The notes under the pieces: model-generated
Database searches by the model: none
Told to the model about the DNA's origin: nothing
Seen by the model: only the letters and a program-made list of their open reading frames with translations
NCBI GenBank assembly: GCA_964016885.1
Contig: CAXHJY010000384.1
Span: 73,930 to 137,929, forward strand
Length of the DNA: 64,000 nt
Source: Eledone cirrhosa
Taxonomy: Eukaryota
Reading direction: 5' to 3'
Shown here: positions 1 through 64,000 of the stretch, in pieces
Layout: every line of letters starts with the position of its first letter
Numbering within the stretch: the stretch's first letter is position 1
Made by a program: the position numbers and the translations under genes

Positions 1-561
1 CAATCAGGATCATGTAAAAACTAACTTTCCAATGACAGTCACACAGTTGAATTCTGCTGCTTTTTGTTGGTATGGTACATATATAATGTTTATATTTATA
101 TATATTATCTTAGCACCTAAATGAATGAACAAGAAAATTGCTTTGTCTTGTTTATTATATTTTTAAAATTTTAGGAAAATAAACTAGAAACATATATTGG
201 TATTTTGATGGCAGATATGTCTAAAATAAACAAAAAGTTAAAAGTCCTGAAATGGTAACAATAAATCTATATATAGAATTTAAAAAATGAAATGTGTGAC
301 CTTTAAACTTTGTTGTAAAAATATTTTTAAAAATACATTTAAGTTGCTGACATCAATGCTTTGAAATTATGTATTTTTAGTCATACTTTACGATCATGAA
401 ATATGACAGGGGGTGTGAAATAAGATTCTTCTTCTTTCTTCAAAATAATGAACAAAAGAGGTGAAGGTACGCAACCTTAGAGTCCGACACTCACATTGAA
501 TGATTTTGATTTAGCACCATTTATCCAAACACAAATACTCAGGACCACAAGGAGCTGACCA

Positions 562-21610: not shown

Positions 21611-22214
21611 TTCTAACTAGGAAACCGAATGATTCTCGGCTTCAGAGTTAAGAATAAAGTAAATAAAATGCAGAGGTAATTGAAATTAAATAAATACATA
21701 CACGCATCTATATACGTACATACACAAGCATACGCGAAAATACTCGCCATGGGTATACAAATACACGCACATATATATATGTGTGTGTGTGTATACAAAT
21801 AATTAAATAAACGTATATAAATAAATAAATACGTATATAACAAGCGCGCACACATACCTACATGTAAATACACATATGTTCGGAGACGAACGTCGACCAA
21901 AACACGAAGTACACATATACACACACCCTACATACGTACGAACCCGCATACTCACACAAACGCAAAACTCACGTATACACATAACCAAAAGCATATGTAC
22001 CAGAATATATAAAATATACGCCATAACATATACAATCAAATATACGTACGAGAAAGTATACGTACCTTCACAAAACATACAGGTAATATATACTTACCTA
22101 TACAAATAAATAATGGTATAAACATAACATATACCTAGCTACCACATCAAGACGTAAAATATCCGCGTATAGTTCATACTATCCGTTAGGGTATAATGTG
22201 GGGCTGTAATACAG

Positions 22215-22592
22215 GAAAATTTTGTGCAATTTATGTTTACAAGCCGAAATTGCCTCAGATTTTTTGTTTAAGATGTGGTCTTTGGCGTAGAGTATTTCCA
22301 GGGACTCAGCGGCGCAGAGGTCACATGGTCTTATTTCCGTTATACGATCTAGCCCTAGCTAGGATTAACTTATATTGGGTGTGGTTATCTTTTAGACTCC
22401 AGATATAAGCTGAAAGTGACGTCATATTCCTTCTTAAAGGGTAACGAAAAGAATGGGTATGCATGTAAAGACGCTGCTTGAATCTATTGGCGGTTAACTC
22501 TATGTAGGCCCTGCGGGACGTGGGTGTTTCAACCTTACATTTGTAGACAATGTTACTAGAGAGGCATTTCTCGGATAGGGGGCAGTCATCAA
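22215..22592 (-). mobile_element. Penelope-like element GIY-YIG endonuclease fragment
   Basis: CPLSEKCLSSNIVYKCKV..AYIELTANRFKQRLYMHTHSF..TSLSAYIWSLK..LNKKSEAISACKH. Confidence 0.88.
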
Positions 22593-38689: not shown

Positions 38690-41230
38690 GCTATTTTTAA
38701 CAGGTCGAGCCACCACATGCTTAATAACCTCGTTAAGGGCAGCATGGCATGGAAGGCGGCCAGCACTATGGCAACAGGAAAGAAGAGTGGAGTCCGAAAG
38801 AGTCCACAATGGATCCACAGCGACATTTATGTGGCTCGCAGATCCGGAGTCCAAGCCTCAAGGAAACGCCGATGCACAGGCTATCGTTATCCAGCTGCGT
38901 GCCAGTGGAGAAGGCGGGCAAGGCATGGAGCCAGGAGGCCGCGCTGAAACAAGCAAGGCGGTGCTGGCGCATGAGCCTGTCTGAGGCCAGGCTGCACTGG
39001 ATGGCATCCCATACGCTTTGGGGGGACTTGACGTCAGCACGGGGAGAAAGAGGAGGGATGCCTACCATGCTAAGTCCCAGCCTGTCCCACGTCTCACAGG
39101 CAACTCACGTTCCCTGAACACAGAGGGTTCTATTGTGTTTTGGAGAACCCTGCTGAGGAGGATGCGGCATGAGGTTACTGTTGAAAGAAACGCTGGCAAG
39201 GCCAGCAAGATCGAGGACCAGAGGCCAAGGCCGCCATATCTGACAGGTAAAGTGTCCTGTTGCCATCCAATGTCGTCAAACCTGACGTTGCATATCTCCT
39301 CAGCTGCTGCTCGGATACAAGTATCGAGGTCAGCGAGGAGAGATGCGTGGCTGTAGCACGGAGCGCTGCAAAGGGTGTAGAGGAGCTTCAGCATGGCGAA
39401 GCAGTTCTTCAACAGGAAGAGAGCTGGGTGGCCATCGATCAAGCCCAGTCGGCTCATGAGGGTCTGGAGTTGTTGGAACCTAGACCTGATAGTGGAGTGG
39501 ATGGCCGGCGAGTGGATCAGTGACCAGAGGATGAGGACATCCTCTTTGAGGGTCACCTGTACTTGGTGGAGATTGGACCACACATCCAAGACGGAGGCGG
39601 CAAAGATCTCAGCATCATAGCTGACATTCACCACCTCCGACTTGGACGAGTTGACCTGGAGGTCGATCCCGCCAGAGCAGGAACCATCGATTGAAGGTCA
39701 TGGCAGACAGTTTCCACGGGCCCACCCAGTGTAGCATCATCCAGGTACCAAACGTTGAGATGGGCCGTGATACTCCGGGCAATGTGGTCTATACCGAGGG
39801 TAAACAGGAGGGGGCCCAAAGGGTCGCCCTGTTGAACACCAGTGGCCGAAGGTATGACCGTATCAGCAGCAAGGAGCATGCTTGGGGCTCCATATGACAA
39901 GTAGGCCAGCGGGTAAGCAGAGGGGGCTCGGCTAAGGCAGGCATTGACTGGATGGTCCCGGCATATACAGTAAAAGGCATTCCTCATGTCAAGCTTGACA
40001 ATGAGGTGCCTGGAGTCCCTGGATGCCGGTTCCGGTGGGCAACTATTGAAGAACTGCCTGGTTGCATGTGAGGCCCTCTCACAGCCACCAGACACGCTGA
40101 CACCCAGTTGCACCTGACTGAACTCTTCACCCAGTTCAGGTGTTATGGACATGCAGACCACCTCAGCAGCCAACCTCCGGAAGACATTGCCCACAGCAAT
40201 GGGGCGTATGCCACCTTTCTTCCTGAGAGCGGTCAGGCTTACCGAAAAAAAGAGGCCTCGGGCGTGAGGATCCAGGGCGCCATGGATAAGCCTATTGGTG
40301 AGTTCCACAATTGCACTCAGAAGGTTACGCCCGGCCTCAGCAGAGAGGTGGGATAGCAACTCCTTAAGGTGGCCTGGTCGGAGACCATCAGCACTTCCGC
40401 TGCTGCTAACTTGGAAGGACTTGATGGCAGACATGATATCTGCATTGGAAGCCACAAGGAGCAGGTGGGGTATGGGTCGGAGGTCAGCGGGTGGCTCAGG
40501 GTGCTTGAGTCACAGGGCAGCCAGGACCTCCTCGGTGGGTTGGAGGACAGTGTCCTCTGAGGCAACCACTCTGACTGCAGCTATGACATCACCCATGATA
40601 AGTTTAGCATTTACGTGGTCGTGCAAACGGGTGGAGGATTGGAGGCACCCGAGAGCAGGGGTTGTGGCGTCCTTCAGCATGCTTGGAATGGGCGCTTGCC
40701 CAAAGGAAGAAAAATTAGCCTTGACAAAGGTTGCTGTCGACAGGCCACCTCAGTCAGCGCCAGAGCTGGGGAGGCCGAGGGTGAGTGGAGCGGAATAGAA
40801 GAGGTGCTCCCAGTCACTGGCTCGATTGGAGTCCAGAGCCCTCTCGATCGAGGAAGCGAGGGCATCGGCTACCGGCACCCAGGCCGCTCTCGGGATCCTG
40901 AGCAGAATCTTCCGGAGCCGCCTGAGCCAAGCGATGTTGACCAGTGCGGTTTGGGCATGAGGCATGCTCGATGTCTCATCTGGTGGAGTGCCAGATGGCT
41001 GTGGCTGGGCAGACGAGGGGAAGAGAGTTTCTGCATCTCCACACTGCGAGGGCACTGGAAGCTCGACGCATCAAACCAACAGTGGTGTGGCCCCTCTTCT
41101 GTCTGTTTGTGGTGCTGCAAGTGCTGCAGATGTTGACTGGTGGGCGTGGAGCCAGGGACTGGGGCACCAAGCGGCATCAGGGGTGAGTGACTGGTTGTCA
41201 CCAGCCTAGGTGCTAGGCACAACTGCACAT
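38690..41230 (-). mobile_element. CRE-clade non-LTR retrotransposon (RT plus zinc motif), frameshifted and 3'-truncated
   Basis: LRIPRAA..WEHL, GSADGLRPGHLK, GGIRPIAVGNVFRRLAA, QLGV..GGCE, KLDMRNAF, GVQQGDPLGPLLF, WYLDD, LPVRYGGLGL, SLRLGL..PHKCRCG..GLH, LSC..GRLPCHAALNEVI. Confidence 0.93.
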
Positions 41231-43682: not shown

Positions 43683-44163
43683 AGAGGTTGCCCAGTACTC
43701 GCGACGTTGCTGTCTTTTGCTGTGGTGTTGGCTCCGTTGTTCACCCCTTCCTTTACATTTTCTTTAATATTGTAACATTAAAAGAATATATCTTTCCGAA
43801 AGAATCGCGAGTTTTATATAATGTTATCTAAGCATTTGTAATGTTATTTATGTATATATTTTTAAAACATATTTATGTTATGTTATTCTACTGTAAATTT
43901 ATTTATATGCTCTGTTTATATTTTCATTCTGAAAGAATTGCAAACGATTTGTAGTGTATTTAGGAAATAATAATAAAAAGACTAACGGTTATTGTTACTG
44001 TTGAATATTTGAACTCAGAACGTAAAGGGATATAATATACTAAGTCTGACACTCAGTAAAAGTGTAAAAATGTTTTTTTTTTTTTTTTTTAAGCGAAAAT
44101 AGAAACCGGGTCGTTGATTTCATTTGATACATCAAATCAAGACGACATTCCATTAGGAAAGCT

Positions 44164-44196
44164 GTTGCTAAGTAACAAATATGAAAATGTGTGAGT
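44164..44196 (+). promoter_or_regulatory. RFX X-box followed by ATG and splice donor (candidate promoter/first exon)
   Basis: GTTGCTAAGTAAC (44164-44176) then ATGAAAATGT|GTGAGT, in a non-repeat, CpG-containing context. Confidence 0.4.
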
Positions 44197-44412
44197 CATA
44201 GTTATCGCCCTTGTATTGACTGGATAGTTAGAAGTTTCTGATATGACTATGACCCTGCAAACGTCATTCAGTACACATTAACATTTGAATTCAAGCCTTT
44301 GGTTCGTTTGAGTTCTCGTTAGTACATTTTTGTGTGTAAACTTACGTTCCCTTTTGAATGAGCCCTGTTTCTATGATACAAATCTGTTTATAGTTGTCTA
44401 AAAACCTTCCAT

Positions 44413-46739: not shown

Positions 46740-46775
<36 letters not shown>

Positions 46776-46779
<4 letters not shown>

Positions 46780-46930
46780 ATGTTCAAGACCCCGACAGAA
46801 ATAGCCGTCGAAACGGCTTGAGCTCTGCCGTCGGGATCTTGAACATTTTCCTATTACCCACTACTATTACTCTAAGTATTGAGTACTCAGGTGCGTTATG
46901 GTGCACATGGTTCCTTACCACACTTCCTTC

Positions 46931-46983: not shown

Positions 46984-46989
<6 letters not shown>

Positions 46990-47073
46990 TTCTACAGGAC
47001 TAGAACTTTCATTCGAAGGAAATCATCAGGAAAAAGCCCTTCGAATAAAACAGTTGTAGTCCTGTAGAAGCCA
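46984..47073. ncRNA. Fold-back containing hammerhead remnants on both strands
   Basis: Arms ATGGCTTCTACAGGACTA/TAGTCCTGTAGAAGCCAT. Minus strand CTGATGA..GAAA..TA-GTCC; plus strand AAAA-CAGTTG-TA-GTCC. Confidence 0.5.
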
Positions 47074-47329
47074 TTTCTATATTGAATATTTATACTCAGC
47101 TATGTATTGAGTACCTTACTCTGGTTACCCCCGATTGAACCCGGGATATACGCACACACACAGATAGATAGATATATTTAAAGGTTAAGCAAGTTTCAAT
47201 GAATAAATCAAAGAATGAGTTTTACAATAGATTGGAAGCACTCAACAGTATGGTTTTCTGGAGTTATTAATATTAATTCAAAATATTAATAAAAATAGAC
47301 ATTCTGTCAGGGTATGTCATGCATCATCT

Positions 47330-47396
47330 TATTTTATCTGATGAGGACGTACTGTTGAAGATAGCTCAGTACCTCTGAAATATGTATAATAAAATA
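47330..47396 (+). ncRNA. Type I hammerhead ribozyme with intact catalytic core
   Basis: Stem I TATTTTAT/ATAAAATA, CTGATGA (47338-47344), stem II GGACGTACTG/CAGTACCTCT (9 of 10 paired), GAAA (47377-47380), quasi-palindromic stem III ATATGTAT, cleavage triplet AUA (after 47388). Confidence 0.8.
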
Positions 47397-47433
47397 TACT
47401 TGATCACACGAATGTCTATTTTTGTTAATATTA

Positions 47434-53060: not shown

Positions 53061-54684
53061 TCATCATCATCAACGTTTAACGTCCGTGTTCCACGCTTGC
53101 ATGGGTTTGGACGGGGGTAGTCCCACTTGAGGCAAGAGTGATTGTCTTGCTCGCATAGGACTGTCTGGCAGGTTTTCTACAGTTGGATGCCCTTCCTAAC
53201 ACCAACCACATTTACAGTGTGGGTCTGGGAGGTTTTTACCGTGTTGCCTACACGGCCACATTACAGCGTGGACTGTGTGTTTTTTTGTCGTGACACCTAC
53301 ACGATCTCATTTGTTTCGGCCTGGATGGCGCGGCACCAACATAACTTTACATAGGACGGGGTGGTGTGGATGGGTGGGGGTGGTGGCGGGACGGGGTGTA
53401 TTTTGTTAGAGATGCCTACTGGCAAGGCGGGTCTTCTCTGTTACTGAGTACCGCCAAAGGTCTCGGTCCAGTGACATTGTCTTGGAGAGGTGTAAGTGTG
53501 TGAGGTCGGAGTTTATCAGCTCGTCCCAGGTTTTTCTAGGTCTGCCTATTCCGTGGCTACCGTCTATCTTTATTGCCCTGCACTTTGTTATACAGCTATC
53601 GACTTTCATGCGCATCACATGTCCATACCAACGTAGCCTTCTCTCGAGTAAACAACATCTGATCCCTCTTATCTCTAATTTTTTCCTTAGTTCGTTTATG
53701 CTTTGCCGTTCACGTATATTACTGTTACACATCCAGCGGAGCATGCAAGCTTCGTTCCTCTCTAGTCTGCGTATATCCTCTGCACACAATGCCCAGGTCT
53801 CACTGCCATGCAACATTGCTGTTCGTATGCAGGCATCGTACAACCTGCCTTTCATTTTTAGGGAGAACCCTTTAGCAGCTAATAGTGGTATAAGCTCTCT
53901 GAACTTTTTCCAACCAGTTCTGACTCTAGCTACAGTACTTTCAGAGCACCCTCCCCCACTGCTGATTTTATCGCCCAGGTAACGGAAGCTGTCCACTATT
54001 TCTATAAAACCCTCTGCGCAATTGAAAGAGCTAGTATTTTGTGGGCACTTGCTGCTACTTATTGCACCAGAACACCGGCCACATGTAAAATCTATGTTCT
54101 TAGTTAGCTTACCTGTGATCCCACTACATCTTTTATGCACCCATACTTTGCATTTAGGACATAAAGTGGAGTTTCTACCTACGCCTTTCCTACACACCGA
54201 GCACGACCATTTCCCAGAAGGGACCGCCGCCTTGTTTTCTTTCCTACAAACTAGAACTTTGGTCTTAGCCAGGTTAATTTTAAGTCCTTTTGACTCTAGG
54301 CCGTGCTTCCATGTTTGGAATTTCTTCTCTAGCTCGGCCATTGATTCCGCTATGAGTGTCAGGTCGTCTGCGTATAGGAGTTCCCATGGGCAGCCTGTCT
54401 TGAACTCCTCTGTTATAAGTGTCAGGTCGTCTGCGTATAGGAGTTCCCATGGGCAGCCTGTCTTGAACTCCTCTGTTATAGCCTGAAGGGCAATAATAAA
54501 TAGTAGGGGGCTGAGAACAGAGCCCTGATGGACGCCAACTTTTACGCTAAACTCTTCACTATATTCGTTGTTAATTCTAACCTTGCTGACTGTTTCTTTA
54601 TACATGGCTTGTATAGCCCTCACAAGCCATTCGTCAACCCCTAGTTTTCTAAGAGCCCACCAGATAATGGAGCGGGGGACTCTG
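53061..54684 (-). mobile_element. Young 5'-truncated RTE-clade LINE: RT C-terminal half, PHD finger, 3' UTR, (GAT)n tail
   Basis: Uninterrupted frame 54681-53406: [33 protein letters not shown] (twice), [44 protein letters not shown]. Confidence 0.95.
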
Positions 54685-55182
54685 GATATATATATACATA
54701 TAAATATAAATATATATATACATATAAATATATATATATACATATAAATATATATATATAAATAAATATACATATAAATATATATATATACATATAAATA
54801 TATATATATATAAATATATATATATATAAATATATATATATACATATAAATATATATATATAAATATATATATATAAATATATATATATACATATAAATA
54901 TATATATATAAATATATATATATAAATATATATATATAAATATATATATATAAATATATATATATACATATATTGTTATATTTGGGGAGGGTCATATTTG
55001 CGTAATATTGCCAGAATTAATAACAGAACACACTCACTGTTTGGTTGGTTTTCGCTTCTCGCTGTCTTTTATATCTGCGGTCTAACTTACTCGGTCCTCA
55101 ATGTTGCCATTGACTGACCGACGGTCAAAAATAATACAGATACAATATAGACACAAACACATATATATAGTTTACATAATTT

Positions 55183-55223
55183 ACATAAATCTTTCGTTGC
55201 ACATCTGCAACATCGTCAGTGGT
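55183..55223 (-). ncRNA. Minimal hammerhead motif in a unique island inside the TA tract
   Basis: CA-CTGACGA-T-GTTGCA(gatg)TGCAAC-GAAA-GATT-TA-TG. Core and 6-bp stem II are perfect; stems I and III are weak. Confidence 0.6.
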
Positions 55224-55701
55224 GTTATATTCATTGTTCCTCCTGTTGTGTTGTATGTCTATATATACATATATATATATATACATATATATATACATAT
55301 ATATATACATGTTGTGTATATATATACATATATACATATACATATATATATATACATATACATATATATATATATACATATACATATATATATATATACA
55401 TATATATATATACATATACATATATATATATACATATACATATATATATATACATATATATACATATACATATATATATATACATATACATATATACATA
55501 TATATACATATACATATATATATATACATACATATACATATATACATACATATACATATATATACATATATATACATATATATATATATACATATATATA
55601 TATACATATATATATATATAAACATATATATATATACATATATATATATACATATATATATATACATATATATATATACATATACATATAAATATATATA
55701 C

Positions 55702-55748
<47 letters not shown>

Positions 55749-55847
55749 CATATATATATACATATATATATATATACATATATATATATACATATATATA
55801 TATACATATATATATATACATATATACATATACATATATACATATAC

Positions 55848-55898
<51 letters not shown>

Positions 55899-55913
55899 CA
55901 TATATACATATAC

Positions 55914-56034
<121 letters not shown>

Positions 56035-56227
56035 CATACATATATATATATACATATACATATATATATATACATATACATATATACATATACATATATA
56101 CATATACATATATACATATACATATACATATATACATATATACATATACATATATACATATATATATATACATATACATATATACATATACATATATACA
56201 TATACATATACATATATACATACATAC

Positions 56228-56258
<31 letters not shown>

Positions 56259-56327
56259 CATATACATATATACATATACATATATACATATATACATATA
56301 TACATATATACATATACATATACATAT

Positions 56328-56364
<37 letters not shown>

Positions 56365-56369
56365 CATAC

Positions 56370-56406
<37 letters not shown>

Positions 56407-56964
56407 CATACATACATATATATATATATACATACATATATATATATATATATACATACATATATATATATATATATACATACATATATATATACATATA
56501 TATATATATACATACATATATATATACATACATATATATATACATACATATATATATACATATATATATATATACATACATATATATATACATACATATA
56601 TATATATATACATATATATATATACATACATATACATATATATATATATATACATACACATACATACATATATATATATACATACACATACATACATATA
56701 TATATATACATACACATACATACATATATATATATACATACACATACATACATATATATATACATACACATACATATATATATATATACATACACATACA
56801 TATATATATATATATATACATACACATATATATATATATATACATACACATACATACATATATATATACATACACATACATACATATATTATATATACAT
56901 ATATATATATATACATATATATACATACATATATATATATATACATATATATATACATATATAC

Positions 56965-57063
<99 letters not shown>

Positions 57064-57132
57064 CATATATATATACATATATATATATATACATATATAT
57101 ATACATATATATATATATACATATATATATAC

Positions 57133-57199
<67 letters not shown>

Positions 57200-57203
57200 C
57201 ATA

Positions 57204-57283
<80 letters not shown>

Positions 57284-57284
57284 C

Positions 57285-57315
<31 letters not shown>

Positions 57316-57418
57316 CATATATATACATATATATATACATATATATATATATACATATATATACATATATATATACATATATATATATACATATATATAT
57401 ATATACATACATATATAC

Positions 57419-57473
<55 letters not shown>

Positions 57474-57491
57474 CATATTATATATATATAC

Positions 57492-57522
<31 letters not shown>

Positions 57523-57848
57523 CATATATATACATATATATATATATACATATACATATATATACATATACATATATATACATATACATATATATACATA
57601 TACATATATATACATATACATATATATACATATATATATATATACATATATATACATATATATATATATACATATACATATACATATATATACATATACA
57701 TATATATACATATACATATATATACATATACATATATATACATATACATATATATATATACATATATATACATATATATACATATATATATATATACATA
57801 TAAATATATATATACATATATATATATACATATAAATATAATATATAC

Positions 57849-57879
<31 letters not shown>

Positions 57880-57924
57880 CATATAAATATATATATACAT
57901 ATATATATATATACATATATATAC

Positions 57925-57977
<53 letters not shown>

Positions 57978-58078
57978 CTTATATACATATATATACATAT
58001 TTATATATATATACATATATATACATATATATATATATACATATATATATACATATATATATATACATATATATATAC

Positions 58079-58115
<37 letters not shown>

Positions 58116-58189
58116 CATATATATATACATATATATATACATATATATATACATATATATATATATACATATATATATATTATATATAC

Positions 58190-58222
<33 letters not shown>

Positions 58223-58461
58223 CATATATATATAATATATATATACATATATACATCATATATATATATATACATATATAATATATATATACATATATAC
58301 ATATATATATATATATACATATATATACATATACATATATATACATATATATATATACATATATATACATATATATATAATATATACATACATATATATA
58401 TATACATATATATATATAATATATATATATATAGCACATATATATACATACCTATATATAC

Positions 58462-58500
<39 letters not shown>

Positions 58501-58508
58501 CATATATA

Positions 58509-58539
<31 letters not shown>

Positions 58540-58558
58540 TATACATACCTATATATAC

Positions 58559-58595
<37 letters not shown>

Positions 58596-58931
58596 CATAT
58601 ATAATATATATATATATATATACATACATATATATATATATACAGATATATATATAATATATATATATATACAGATATATATATAATATATATATATATA
58701 ATATATAATATATATACAGATATATATATAATATATATATATATAATATATAATATATATACAGATATATATAATATATATATATATAATATATATATAT
58801 ACAGATATATATATAATATATATATATAATATATATATAATATATATATAATATATATATATATACATATATACATATAAATATATATATATATACATAT
58901 AAATATATATATATACATATATACATATATA

Positions 58932-59098
58932 TGTAAATGTGGTTGGTGTTAGGAAGGGCATCCAACTGTAGAAAACCTGCCAGACAGTCCTATGCGAGCA
59001 AGACAATCACTCTTGCCTCAAGTGGGACTACCCCCGTCCAAACCCATGCAAGCGTGGAACACGGACGTTAAAACGTTGATGATGATGATGATGATGAT
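58932..59098 (+). mobile_element. Third copy of the RTE 3' end in the TA tract
   Basis: Matches the terminal ~160 bp of the 53061 element, with a (GAT)n tail. Confidence 0.92.
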
Positions 59099-59198
59099 AT
59101 ACATATATACATATATATATATACATATATATACATATATACATATATATACATATATATATACATATATATATATATACATATATACATATATATAC

Positions 59199-59229
<31 letters not shown>

Positions 59230-59351
59230 ACATATATATACATATATATATACATATATATAATATATATATATATACAATATATATACATATATAAATA
59301 TATATATACATATAAATATATATATACATATAAATAAATATATACATATAA

Positions 59352-59386
<35 letters not shown>

Positions 59387-59508
59387 CATATAAATATACA
59401 TATAAATATATATATACATATATATATATACATATATATATACATATATATATATATAAATATATATATACATATAAATATATATATACATATATATATA
59501 TAATATAC

Positions 59509-59592
<84 letters not shown>

Positions 59593-59598
59593 TTATAC

Positions 59599-59689
<91 letters not shown>

Positions 59690-59730
59690 GATATATATAT
59701 ATATATATATACATATACATGTATTTATAC

Positions 59731-59761
<31 letters not shown>

Positions 59762-59782
59762 CATATACATGTATTTATACAT

Positions 59783-59883
<101 letters not shown>

Positions 59884-60013
59884 GATATATATATAATATA
59901 TAGATATATATATATATATATACATATATATATAAATATATATATAAATATATATATATATAGATATATACATATATATATAAATATATATATATAAATA
60001 TATATATATATAG

Positions 60014-60080
<67 letters not shown>

Positions 60081-60257
60081 AATATATATATATACATATA
60101 TATATACATATAAATATATATATACATATAAATATATATATACATATAAATATATAGATATACATATATATATACATATAAATATATATATACATATAAA
60201 TATATATATACATATAAATATATAGATATACATATATATATATATATACATACATAC

Positions 60258-60290
<33 letters not shown>

Positions 60291-60296
60291 CATACA

Positions 60297-60382
<86 letters not shown>

Positions 60383-60383
60383 C

Positions 60384-60466
<83 letters not shown>

Positions 60467-60517
60467 CATATATACATATACATATATACATATATACATA
60501 TACATATATATATATAC

Positions 60518-60598
<81 letters not shown>

Positions 60599-60633
60599 TA
60601 TACATATTTATATATATACATATATATATATAC

Positions 60634-60672
<39 letters not shown>

Positions 60673-61213
60673 CATATATATATACATATTTATATATATA
60701 CATATATATATATACATATACATATATATATATACATATATATATATACATATATATATATACATATATATATATACATATATATATATACATATATATA
60801 TATACATATATATATATACATATATATATACATATATACATATATATATATACATATATATATATATACATATATATATACATATACATATATATATACA
60901 TATATATACAGATAATTATACATATATATATACATATATACTATATATATATACATATATATATATACATATATATATACATATACATATATATATACAT
61001 ATATATACAGATATATATATACATATATATATATACATATATATATACATATACATATATATACATATATATATATACATATATATATATATACATATAT
61101 ATATACATATACATATATATATACATATACATATATATACATATATATATATACATATATGTATATATATACATATATATATATACATATACATATATAT
61201 ATATACACATATA

Positions 61214-61288
<75 letters not shown>

Positions 61289-61584
61289 ATATATATATAT
61301 ACATATATACATATATATATATATAAATATATATGTATATATATATATGTATATGTATATATATATATGTATATTATATATGTATATATGTTATATATAT
61401 ATATGTATATATATATATGTATATGTATATATATATATGTATATGTATATATATATATGTATATGTATATATATGTATATATGTATATATATATGTATAT
61501 ATGTATATGTATATATATATATATGTATATATATGTATATATATATATATATGTATATATATATGTATATATATGTATATATTT

Positions 61585-61619
<35 letters not shown>

Positions 61620-61628
61620 TACATATAC

Positions 61629-61659
<31 letters not shown>

Positions 61660-61660
61660 C

Positions 61661-61735
<75 letters not shown>

Positions 61736-62265
61736 TATATATAGATATATATATATAAATATATACATATATATATATACATATATATATATACATATAT
61801 ATATATATACATATATATACATATATATAATATATATATATACATATACATATATATACATATACATATATACATATATATATATACATATACATATATA
61901 CATATACACATATATATATATACATATATACATATATATATATATACATATATATATATACATATATATACATATACATATATATATATACATATATATA
62001 CATATACATATATATATATACATATACATATATATATATACATATATATACATATACATATATATATATACATACATATACATATATATACATATATATA
62101 CATATATATATATACATATATATATATATAAACATATATATATACATATATATATATACATATATACATATACATATAAATATATATACATATATATACA
62201 TATATATATATATACATATATATATATACATATATATACATATAATAATACATATATATATATAC

Positions 62266-62302
<37 letters not shown>

Positions 62303-62486
62303 CATATATATATTATACATATATAATATATACATATACATATACATATATACATATACATATATACATATATATATATACATATATATATATACATATA
62401 TACATATACATAATATATATATACATATATACATATACATATATATATACATATACTATATATATATATACATATTATATATATAC

Positions 62487-62521
<35 letters not shown>

Positions 62522-62530
62522 CATATATAC

Positions 62531-62577
<47 letters not shown>

Positions 62578-62787
62578 CATATAAATATATATATACATAT
62601 ATATATACATACTATATATATACATATATAATATATATATATACATATATATATATACATATACATATATATATATACATATATATATACATATACATAT
62701 ATATATATACTATATACATATATAATATATACATATATATATATACATATACATATACATATATATATATATATACAATATACATAT

Positions 62788-62826
<39 letters not shown>

Positions 62827-63480
62827 TATACATATATATATATACATACATATATATATAATATATACATACATATATATATATATATATATACATACAT
62901 ATATATATATATATATACAATACATATATATATATACTATATATACATATATATATATATATATATACATACATATATATATATACATATATATATACAT
63001 ATATACATATATATATACATACATATATATATATACATATATATATATACATACATATATATATACATACATATATATATATACATACATATATATATAT
63101 ACATATATATATATATACTATACATATATATATACATATATATATACATACATATATATATATACATACATATATATATATACATATATATATATATACA
63201 TAATATATATATACATACATATATATATATATATATACATACTATATATACATACATATATATATATATACATATATATATACATATACATATATATATA
63301 TACATATATATATATACATACATATATACATATATATATATACATATACTATATATATATAATACATATATATACATATATATATATATATACATACACA
63401 TACATAATATATATATATACATACACATACATACATATATATATACATATACATATATATATACATATATATATATATAC

Positions 63481-63529
<49 letters not shown>

Positions 63530-63563
63530 ATATACATATATATATACATATATATATACATAT

Positions 63564-63646
<83 letters not shown>

Positions 63647-63658
63647 CATATATATTAC

Positions 63659-63691
<33 letters not shown>

Positions 63692-63763
63692 CATATATAT
63701 AATATATATATACATATATATATATACTATATATATATATATATACATATCATATATATATAC

Positions 63764-63812
<49 letters not shown>

Positions 63813-63922
63813 CATATATATACATATATATATACATATACATATATATACATATATAATATATATACATATACATATATATACATATACATATATATAC
63901 ATATACATATATATACATATAC

Positions 63923-63953
<31 letters not shown>

Positions 63954-64000
63954 CATATATATACATATATATAAATATATATACATATATATACTATATA

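What the first reader, a model, noticed from the sequence alone, without database searches (positions are those of the whole stretch)
47330..47396. Apparently intact self-cleaving hammerhead ribozyme
Seen: all conserved core bases (CUGAUGA, GAAA, UH), an 8-bp stem I, a 10-bp stem II with one mismatch, and a short self-complementary stem III (ATATGTAT, plausibly ATACGTAT before CpG decay). Known: minimal type I hammerheads with palindromic stem III occur in Penelope-like element termini and cleave best as dimers. Inferred: if the X-box site at 44.2 kb drives plus-strand transcription, this motif lies sense within that transcript.
Basis: partly seen in the sequence, partly recalled or inferred. 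Interest (0 to 1): 0.75.

Follow-up and report, generated by a model that had tools for sequence, protein, structure and literature searches.

The report
Penelope retroelement hammerhead, one of thousands
This is a real but ordinary self-cutting-RNA motif at the end of a broken jumping-gene copy, one of tens of thousands of such motifs in this animal genome; it likely cuts only when two copies pair up, and cutting was not tested.

Summary
The motif is there as described (47330-47396) and is not chance. It is not a stand-alone or host ribozyme. It lies in a 260-base, two-armed end fragment (about 47174-47431) of a Penelope-like retroelement whose long copies encode RT plus a C-terminal GIY-YIG nuclease with Hydra-clade motifs. 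An exact pattern for this hammerhead group matches 52,731 places in the genome (control 0), about one per window. Stem II covaries across sister families. CpG decay in this copy is not supported: the stem III centre is TG in 24,542 matches but CA in 119, as expected if the RNAs were selected to pair as dimers. Insertions end about 55 or 155 bases past the predicted cut, not at it, so they were copied from uncut or re-joined RNA. This lone copy has no sense partner in the window and is predicted to be masked by flanking hairpins. The X-box link is untested. One detail I did not find described: pair 4 of stem II is a mismatch (mostly C.C) in 50 of 50 distinct motifs. The scan noted Hydra-clade hammerheads and the end hairpins before, on other DNA of this genome.

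The parts
47330..47396 (+). Minimal type I hammerhead motif of the element's terminal repeat (pLTR)
   Evidence: differs from 63 family arms mainly at three loop II positions
47338..47344 (+). Core CUGAUGA (C3-A9)
47345..47376 (+). Stem II: 3 pairs (first G.U), C.C mismatch at 47348/47373, 6 pairs, 12-nt loop
47380..47387 (+). Self-complementary stem III segment; 8 pairs with two central G.U wobbles if two copies pair
47388..47388 (+). H17 (A); predicted cleavage 3' of this base
   Evidence: position by core numbering; cleavage not tested
47303..47431 (+). Direct arm of the insertion: 5'-truncated pLTR (C3-33 to +93), ending about 12 nt short of the usual +105 end, abutting (GTCT)n
   Evidence: 95% to the 3' end of near-full copy L032
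47174..47302 (-). Inverted arm of the insertion (C3+71 to about +203), ending at the family's second fixed end next to a TA-like tract
47240..47264 (-). First of the two bulged end hairpins (4-bp stem, UU bulge, inner stem), about 6 nt behind the +105 end
   Evidence: lead from earlier scan notes
47307..47353 (+). Competing hairpin predicted to cover the core and the 5' strand of stem II; specific to this family

Best explanation
The motif is the hammerhead in the terminal repeat of a high-copy Penelope-like retroelement family, likely of the Hydra clade, left here in a short two-armed, 5'-truncated insertion; it likely cuts only as a dimer, and this lone copy is probably inert. Shown: the motif, the family, the RT and GIY-YIG coding body of long copies, insertion in (TA)n, two fixed 3' ends, stem II covariation, and a stem III centre that stays self-complementary. 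Inferred: in transcripts of long copies that carry a terminal repeat at both ends, two hammerheads pair through stem III and cut out unit-length RNA. Inferred: the element's RT starts at two internal sites downstream of the cut position, on uncut or re-joined RNA, and copying from the two sites gives the two arms. Inferred: the window copy lacks a sense partner and is masked by its own fold-back, so it is a passenger.
For: 60 matches at 85-100% in the own genome, 40 of 50 candidates scored. Near-full copy L032: (TA)n, inverted pLTR, broken ORF with RWR, DKT, GLYRDD, CxCX5C, VYKC..YIG, CxxC, CxH, no CCHH, then about 1.9 kb of 3' UTR, the hammerhead and (TA)n. These match the Hydra description in PMC8557442 section 11, whose hammerhead table also often shows U before GAA and A at the cut site. 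52,731 pattern matches, control 0. Stem II, which the pattern left free: 5 of 5 counted pairs in its inner helix change on both sides; 98.2% of cells paired; score 0.327 against 0.228+/-0.016 shuffled and at most 0.127 slid. Stem III centre TG 24,542, CG 650, CA 119, TA 27,420 by subtraction; the CA duplex is unstable (+1.0 kcal/mol) and the others stable. Dimer hammerhead fold -21.6 against -8.5 per open monomer and -5.0 for a closed monomer. 67 of 81 arm ends fall at +100..109 or +200..209; the cut is at +50; 16 of 18 head-to-head insertions have one arm at each end. 18 of 30 ORF-start copies carry a sense hammerhead upstream of the ORF. Two internal RT starts, and insertion from uncut RNA, were shown for another PLE (PMC11167929).
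Against: No cleavage or RNA data. The lowest-energy cofold of two copies is non-catalytic (-24.3, 2.7 kcal/mol below the dimer hammerhead). The preferred G10.1-C11.1 pair occurs in 1 of 50 distinct motifs. The competing hairpin also covers the core in ORF-linked copies of this family, so either the prediction is unreliable or this family's ribozyme is normally held off. Core bases decay in copies as freely as others (C3 changed in 6, G8 in 5 of 63 arms; 50 of 63 keep all 11). The motif is RWR not RWK, the element is about 4.4 kb rather than under 3 kb, Pfam found no RT or GIY-YIG domain, and no tree was built. Copy counts are not independent events.
Confidence: 0.8

Rival explanations
1. The motif is kept as a structure for binding (by the element's RT or by a second RNA) and cutting is weak or irrelevant to transposition.
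For: No insertion ends or starts pile up at the cut. PLE minimal hammerheads cleave poorly even as dimers (PMC4209133). Catalytic mutants did not affect insertion in vitro in Poseidon_Ac, and no RNA-seq reads ended at its cut (PMC11167929). Non-canonical first pair of stem II.
Against: Core, palindrome and H17 are all kept across sister families whose stem II has been rewritten; five such sister motifs turned up in loci fetched without the pattern. This is what selection on catalysis predicts.
Confidence: 0.12
2. This particular copy has been co-opted and cuts a host transcript that starts near the X-box-like site at 44164.
For: Sense orientation relative to the proposed promoter; all core bases present; the 44085-44400 stretch has no other full-length match in the genome.
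Against: The copy is 98-99% like dispersed paralogues, so intactness reflects youth. About one such motif is expected per 57 kb. No second sense copy in the window. Catalytic stems predicted at 0.02 or less in context. The two long ORFs with Pfam hits in the window are RT remnants. A loose X-box pattern hits 2 sites in 55 kb.
Confidence: 0.04
3. The fragment is a non-autonomous retrozyme-like circle derived from the PLE end, amplified by itself.
For: Many short copies hold only the terminal 130-270 nt; retrozymes are reported to derive from PLE ends (bioRxiv 10.64898/2026.07.22.740005, passages).
Against: 5' ends of the copies are scattered and continue into 3' UTR and ORF; no tandem array of a fixed monomer in the 61 loci examined.
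Confidence: 0.04

Closest known systems
Hydra clade of C-terminal EN+ Penelope-like elements, e.g. Hydra-1_Obim (Craig et al. 2021, PMC8557442; passages, section 11, supplement part 2 and searches seen)
   Same: RT then GIY-YIG; DKT; CxCX5C; CxxC and CxH around E and N; no CCHH; (TA)n targets; type I hammerhead near the 3' end with short near-palindromic stem III.
   Different: RWR for RWK; about 4.4 kb with a 1.9 kb 3' UTR against under 3 kb; clear pLTR; hammerhead sequence unlike that of Hydra-1_Obim (compared by eye); 10-position stem II with a fixed mismatch; tens of thousands of motifs. A different family, not among those listed in the Hydra sheet as far as the hammerhead table shows.
Minimal PLE hammerheads (Cervera and de la Pena 2014, PMC4209133; parts 1-2 of 4 read). 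Lunse et al. 2017 was not held and is known only from its citation in PMC6765202 (passages)
   Same: Type I, in pLTRs, palindromic stem III, long stem II, many dispersed single copies, dimer mechanism.
   Different: First stem II pair is A-U or G.U rather than G-C; stem I is 8 bp rather than 4-5; 52,731 matches against about 4,000 and 9,000 quoted there for coelacanth and Xenopus (other search methods, so only roughly comparable).
Poseidon_Ac two-site internal RT initiation and tail (Frangieh et al. 2024, PMC11167929; passages)
   Same: Two fixed 3' ends downstream of the hammerhead; no ends at the cut.
   Different: Tail here about 100 nt rather than 30-40; each end is followed by a bulged hairpin; inferred from genomic copies only.

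Membership tests
PLE-type minimal (dimer) type I hammerhead | Conserved core C3 U4 G5 A6 G8 A9 G12 A13 A14 A15.1 U16.1 and H17 not G | tested here: met
PLE-type minimal (dimer) type I hammerhead | Stems I and II, with covariation | tested here: met
   stem II covaries; stem I varies on one side only (G.U changes) and was partly fixed by my pattern
PLE-type minimal (dimer) type I hammerhead | Short palindromic stem III suited to a dimer | tested here: met
PLE-type minimal (dimer) type I hammerhead | Located in the pLTR of a PLE | tested here: met
PLE-type minimal (dimer) type I hammerhead | Self-cleavage as a dimer | not testable with these tools
   needs in vitro assay
Canonical type I hammerhead (Rfam models) | Match to an Rfam hammerhead model | tested here: not met
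Canonical type I hammerhead (Rfam models) | G10.1-C11.1 pair and 4-bp stem II | tested here: not met
   G.U here; G-C in 1 of 50 distinct motifs. Not filed under this family
Hydra-clade PLE | Single ORF with RT and C-terminal GIY-YIG | tested here: met
   by motifs in broken copies L032 and L036; Pfam gave no domain hit
Hydra-clade PLE | RWK motif | tested here: inconclusive
   RWR in 19 of 30 copies, RWK in none; the two top homologues read (P0002, P0004, 41% and 39%) have RWK
Hydra-clade PLE | DKT motif | tested here: met
   24 of 30 copies
Hydra-clade PLE | CxCX5C linker, CxxC and CxH flanking E and N, no CCHH | tested here: met
   L032
Hydra-clade PLE | Insertion in (TA)n | tested here: met
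   the window's direct arm itself abuts (GTCT)n
Hydra-clade PLE | Generally under 3 kb (typical, not defining) | tested here: not met
   about 4.4 kb in L032 and L036
Hydra-clade PLE | Placement in the clade on an RT tree | not tested
   published reference proteins were not available as tool sequences
Non-LTR retrozyme | Tandem array of a fixed non-coding monomer | tested here: not met

The most novel reading that the evidence does not exclude
This hammerhead group is a distinct dimeric variant in which a fixed C.C mismatch four pairs into stem II replaces the usual loop II contact (docking on stem I or on the element's RT), and the elements replicate through cut and re-joined circular RNA copied from two hairpin-marked start sites. 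With more than 50,000 motifs and many natural covariants, the genome would be a ready-made mutational scan for the open question of what PLE hammerheads do.
Probability: 0.15. Interest if true: 0.55.

Novelty: new member of a known kind. Interest (0 to 1): 0.25.

Why it matters
For this locus, little: about one such motif is expected in any window of this genome. For the family: the role of PLE hammerheads is unsettled, and this group offers three testable handles. These are a genome-wide sign of selection for dimer pairing (TG against CA, 206 to 1), a conserved stem II mismatch, and fixed insertion ends that avoid the cut site. It also shows that Hydra-like elements, described from few families, can be very abundant.

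Tried and rejected
Rfam: no hammerhead hit. Pfam on the family ORF pieces and three homologues: no RT or GIY-YIG hit. Naiad membership was my first guess and was dropped: the nuclease is C-terminal. A conserved anti-ribozyme switch: the upstream hairpin covers the core in the window's family and one close sister, but in most other families it does not and shows no covariation, so it was rejected as a general feature. Scars of cleavage in the genome: one arm ends at +49 (L008) and one starts at +48 (L055) among 81 ends and about 90 starts; too few to count. The pile of 5' starts at -66 to -30 follows from my query and is not read as a transcription start. Sequencing runs: no RNA holder listed. 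Contigs of four runs of unrecorded kind hold the family, including two other organisms (one 102-nt piece with 0 differences, one 98-nt piece with 2), but cannot show ends or expression. Paper searches for an octopus or cephalopod hammerhead census and for Hydra-clade follow-ups returned only Craig 2021 as relevant; subscription papers, Lunse 2017 among them, were not searchable and may describe this group or the mismatch. Rows dropped: 17 of 62 distinct motifs were aligned (19 picked for distinct stem II, 2 decayed copies of the window's family left out); 8 duplicate loci were skipped; L021 (ambiguous short pieces) and L030 (tail-to-tail) were left out of the 18.

Full report
Observation. My descriptor scan finds this one motif in the window and none of comparable strength in 60 shuffles. 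Rfam does not recognise it, and its folding energy alone is not unusual.

It is a repeat. A search of the own genome (3.0 Gb, an animal; the SINEs resemble octopus repeats as I recall them, not tested) gave 60 matches at 85-100% identity. The window copy has two arms joined head to head: an inverted arm at about 47174-47302 and a direct arm at 47303-47431 that holds the hammerhead. Following seven copies upstream led to two near-full elements of about 4.4 kb (L032, L036). L032 reads (TA)n, inverted terminal repeat, a broken ORF, about 1.9 kb of 3' UTR, the hammerhead, (TA)n. The ORF has RWR, DKT, GLYRDD, CxCX5C, a GIY-YIG-type VYKC..YIG, CxxC and CxH, and no CCHH. Apart from RWR for RWK and the length, this is the description of the Hydra clade in PMC8557442 section 11. 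Pfam does not detect the domains. The best database homologues are unnamed, 39-48% identical for the top four, and the two I read carry RWK and DKT. Hydra-1_Obim in that paper's supplement has a different hammerhead and a clearly diverged protein (by eye). No tree was built, so clade membership is likely, not shown.

How common. An exact pattern fixing the core, part of stem I and stem III but leaving stem II free matches 52,731 places, with 0 for the reversed control: one per 57 kb. These are matches from several sister families, and two-armed insertions can count twice.

Selection on the structure. In an alignment of 17 motifs with distinct stem II, all five counted pairs of the inner stem II helix change on both sides; 98.2% of cells pair, and the covariation score exceeds all 500 shuffles and all slid controls (related sequences inflate such scores). 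Pair 4 is a mismatch in 50 of 50 distinct motifs, C.C in 45, while its neighbours covary. Pair 1 is A-U or G.U in 48 of 50, so the U before GAAA is the family state. The stem III centre is TG in 24,542, CG in 650, CA in 119 and TA in 27,420 (by subtraction) matches. CpG deamination in inserted DNA would give TG and CA alike; only CA breaks pairing between two copies. I read this as selection in the master RNAs for a dimer helix (inference; copies are not independent).

Mechanism. A closed monomer costs energy (-5.0 against -8.5 kcal/mol open), and the dimer fold is better than two open monomers (-21.6), although a non-catalytic cofold is lower still (-24.3). This fits the dimer model in PMC4209133 and PMC6765202. 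18 of 30 copies found by their ORF start carry a sense hammerhead upstream of the ORF, so long transcripts could hold two. Arm ends cluster at +105 and about +203 from C3 (67 of 81), the cut would be at +50, and 16 of 18 head-to-head insertions use one end on each arm. The cDNAs therefore run through the cut position: templates were uncut or re-joined RNA. Ten of the 30 copies have 310 nt or more of direct repeat upstream of C3, which fits tandem read-through or a circle equally. PMC11167929 reports two internal RT starts and insertion from uncut RNA for another PLE. Earlier scan notes proposed a bulged hairpin behind each end. I confirmed one 52-64 nt after the cut in most long-armed copies of the sister families listed, and both in this family, though their folding energies are no better than shuffles.

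This copy. It keeps all core bases because it is young (98-99% to its nearest paralogues); core bases decay freely among 63 arms. It has no sense partner in the window. In context, an upstream hairpin and the fold-back of its two arms put stems I and II at 0.02 or less; the same upstream hairpin is predicted in ORF-linked copies, which limits the weight of this. The X-box-like site at 44164 exists in unique sequence, but no transcript or host exon was found or could be tested; no RNA holder was listed.

Verdict. A real, ordinary PLE hammerhead in a truncated insertion; a new family of a known kind. The points worth following are family-level: the census, the TG/CA asymmetry and the conserved stem II mismatch. 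I did not find these in the papers searched, with Lunse et al. 2017 unavailable.

Noticed in passing
window 22212-22590 (-): Fragment of another Hydra-like PLE nuclease domain (tblastn 42-47% to P0002 and P0004).
   Followed up: no
window 46985-47075 and 46770-46856: Two strong fold-back hairpins (z -12 and -8 to -9) from other TA-inserted repeat families; the first has CUGAUGA and GAAA on the minus strand but no hammerhead fold by my descriptor.
   Followed up: partly
window 55178-55219 (-): Second hammerhead-like core with a 6-bp stem II beside the TA satellite; no stem I found.
   Followed up: partly
window 44164-44200: X-box-like 13-mer followed by an ATG and a GTGAGT donor-like site in unique AT-rich sequence; possible first exon, untested.
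   Followed up: partly
L007, L013, L015, L017, L019, L035, L037: Sister-family hammerheads sit within 1-5 kb of the window's family, as expected from shared (TA)n targets; L035 and L037 hold a related ORF at about 66-69% DNA identity.
   Followed up: partly
upstream of the hammerhead in most families: A short motif like GGTATGTCA recurs 20-45 nt before the core in otherwise diverged families; function unknown.
   Followed up: no
window 39628-40506 (-) and 53409-55016 (-): RT remnants of other retroelements, the second with a PHD-like finger; 55260-64000 is a TA-rich satellite.
   Followed up: no
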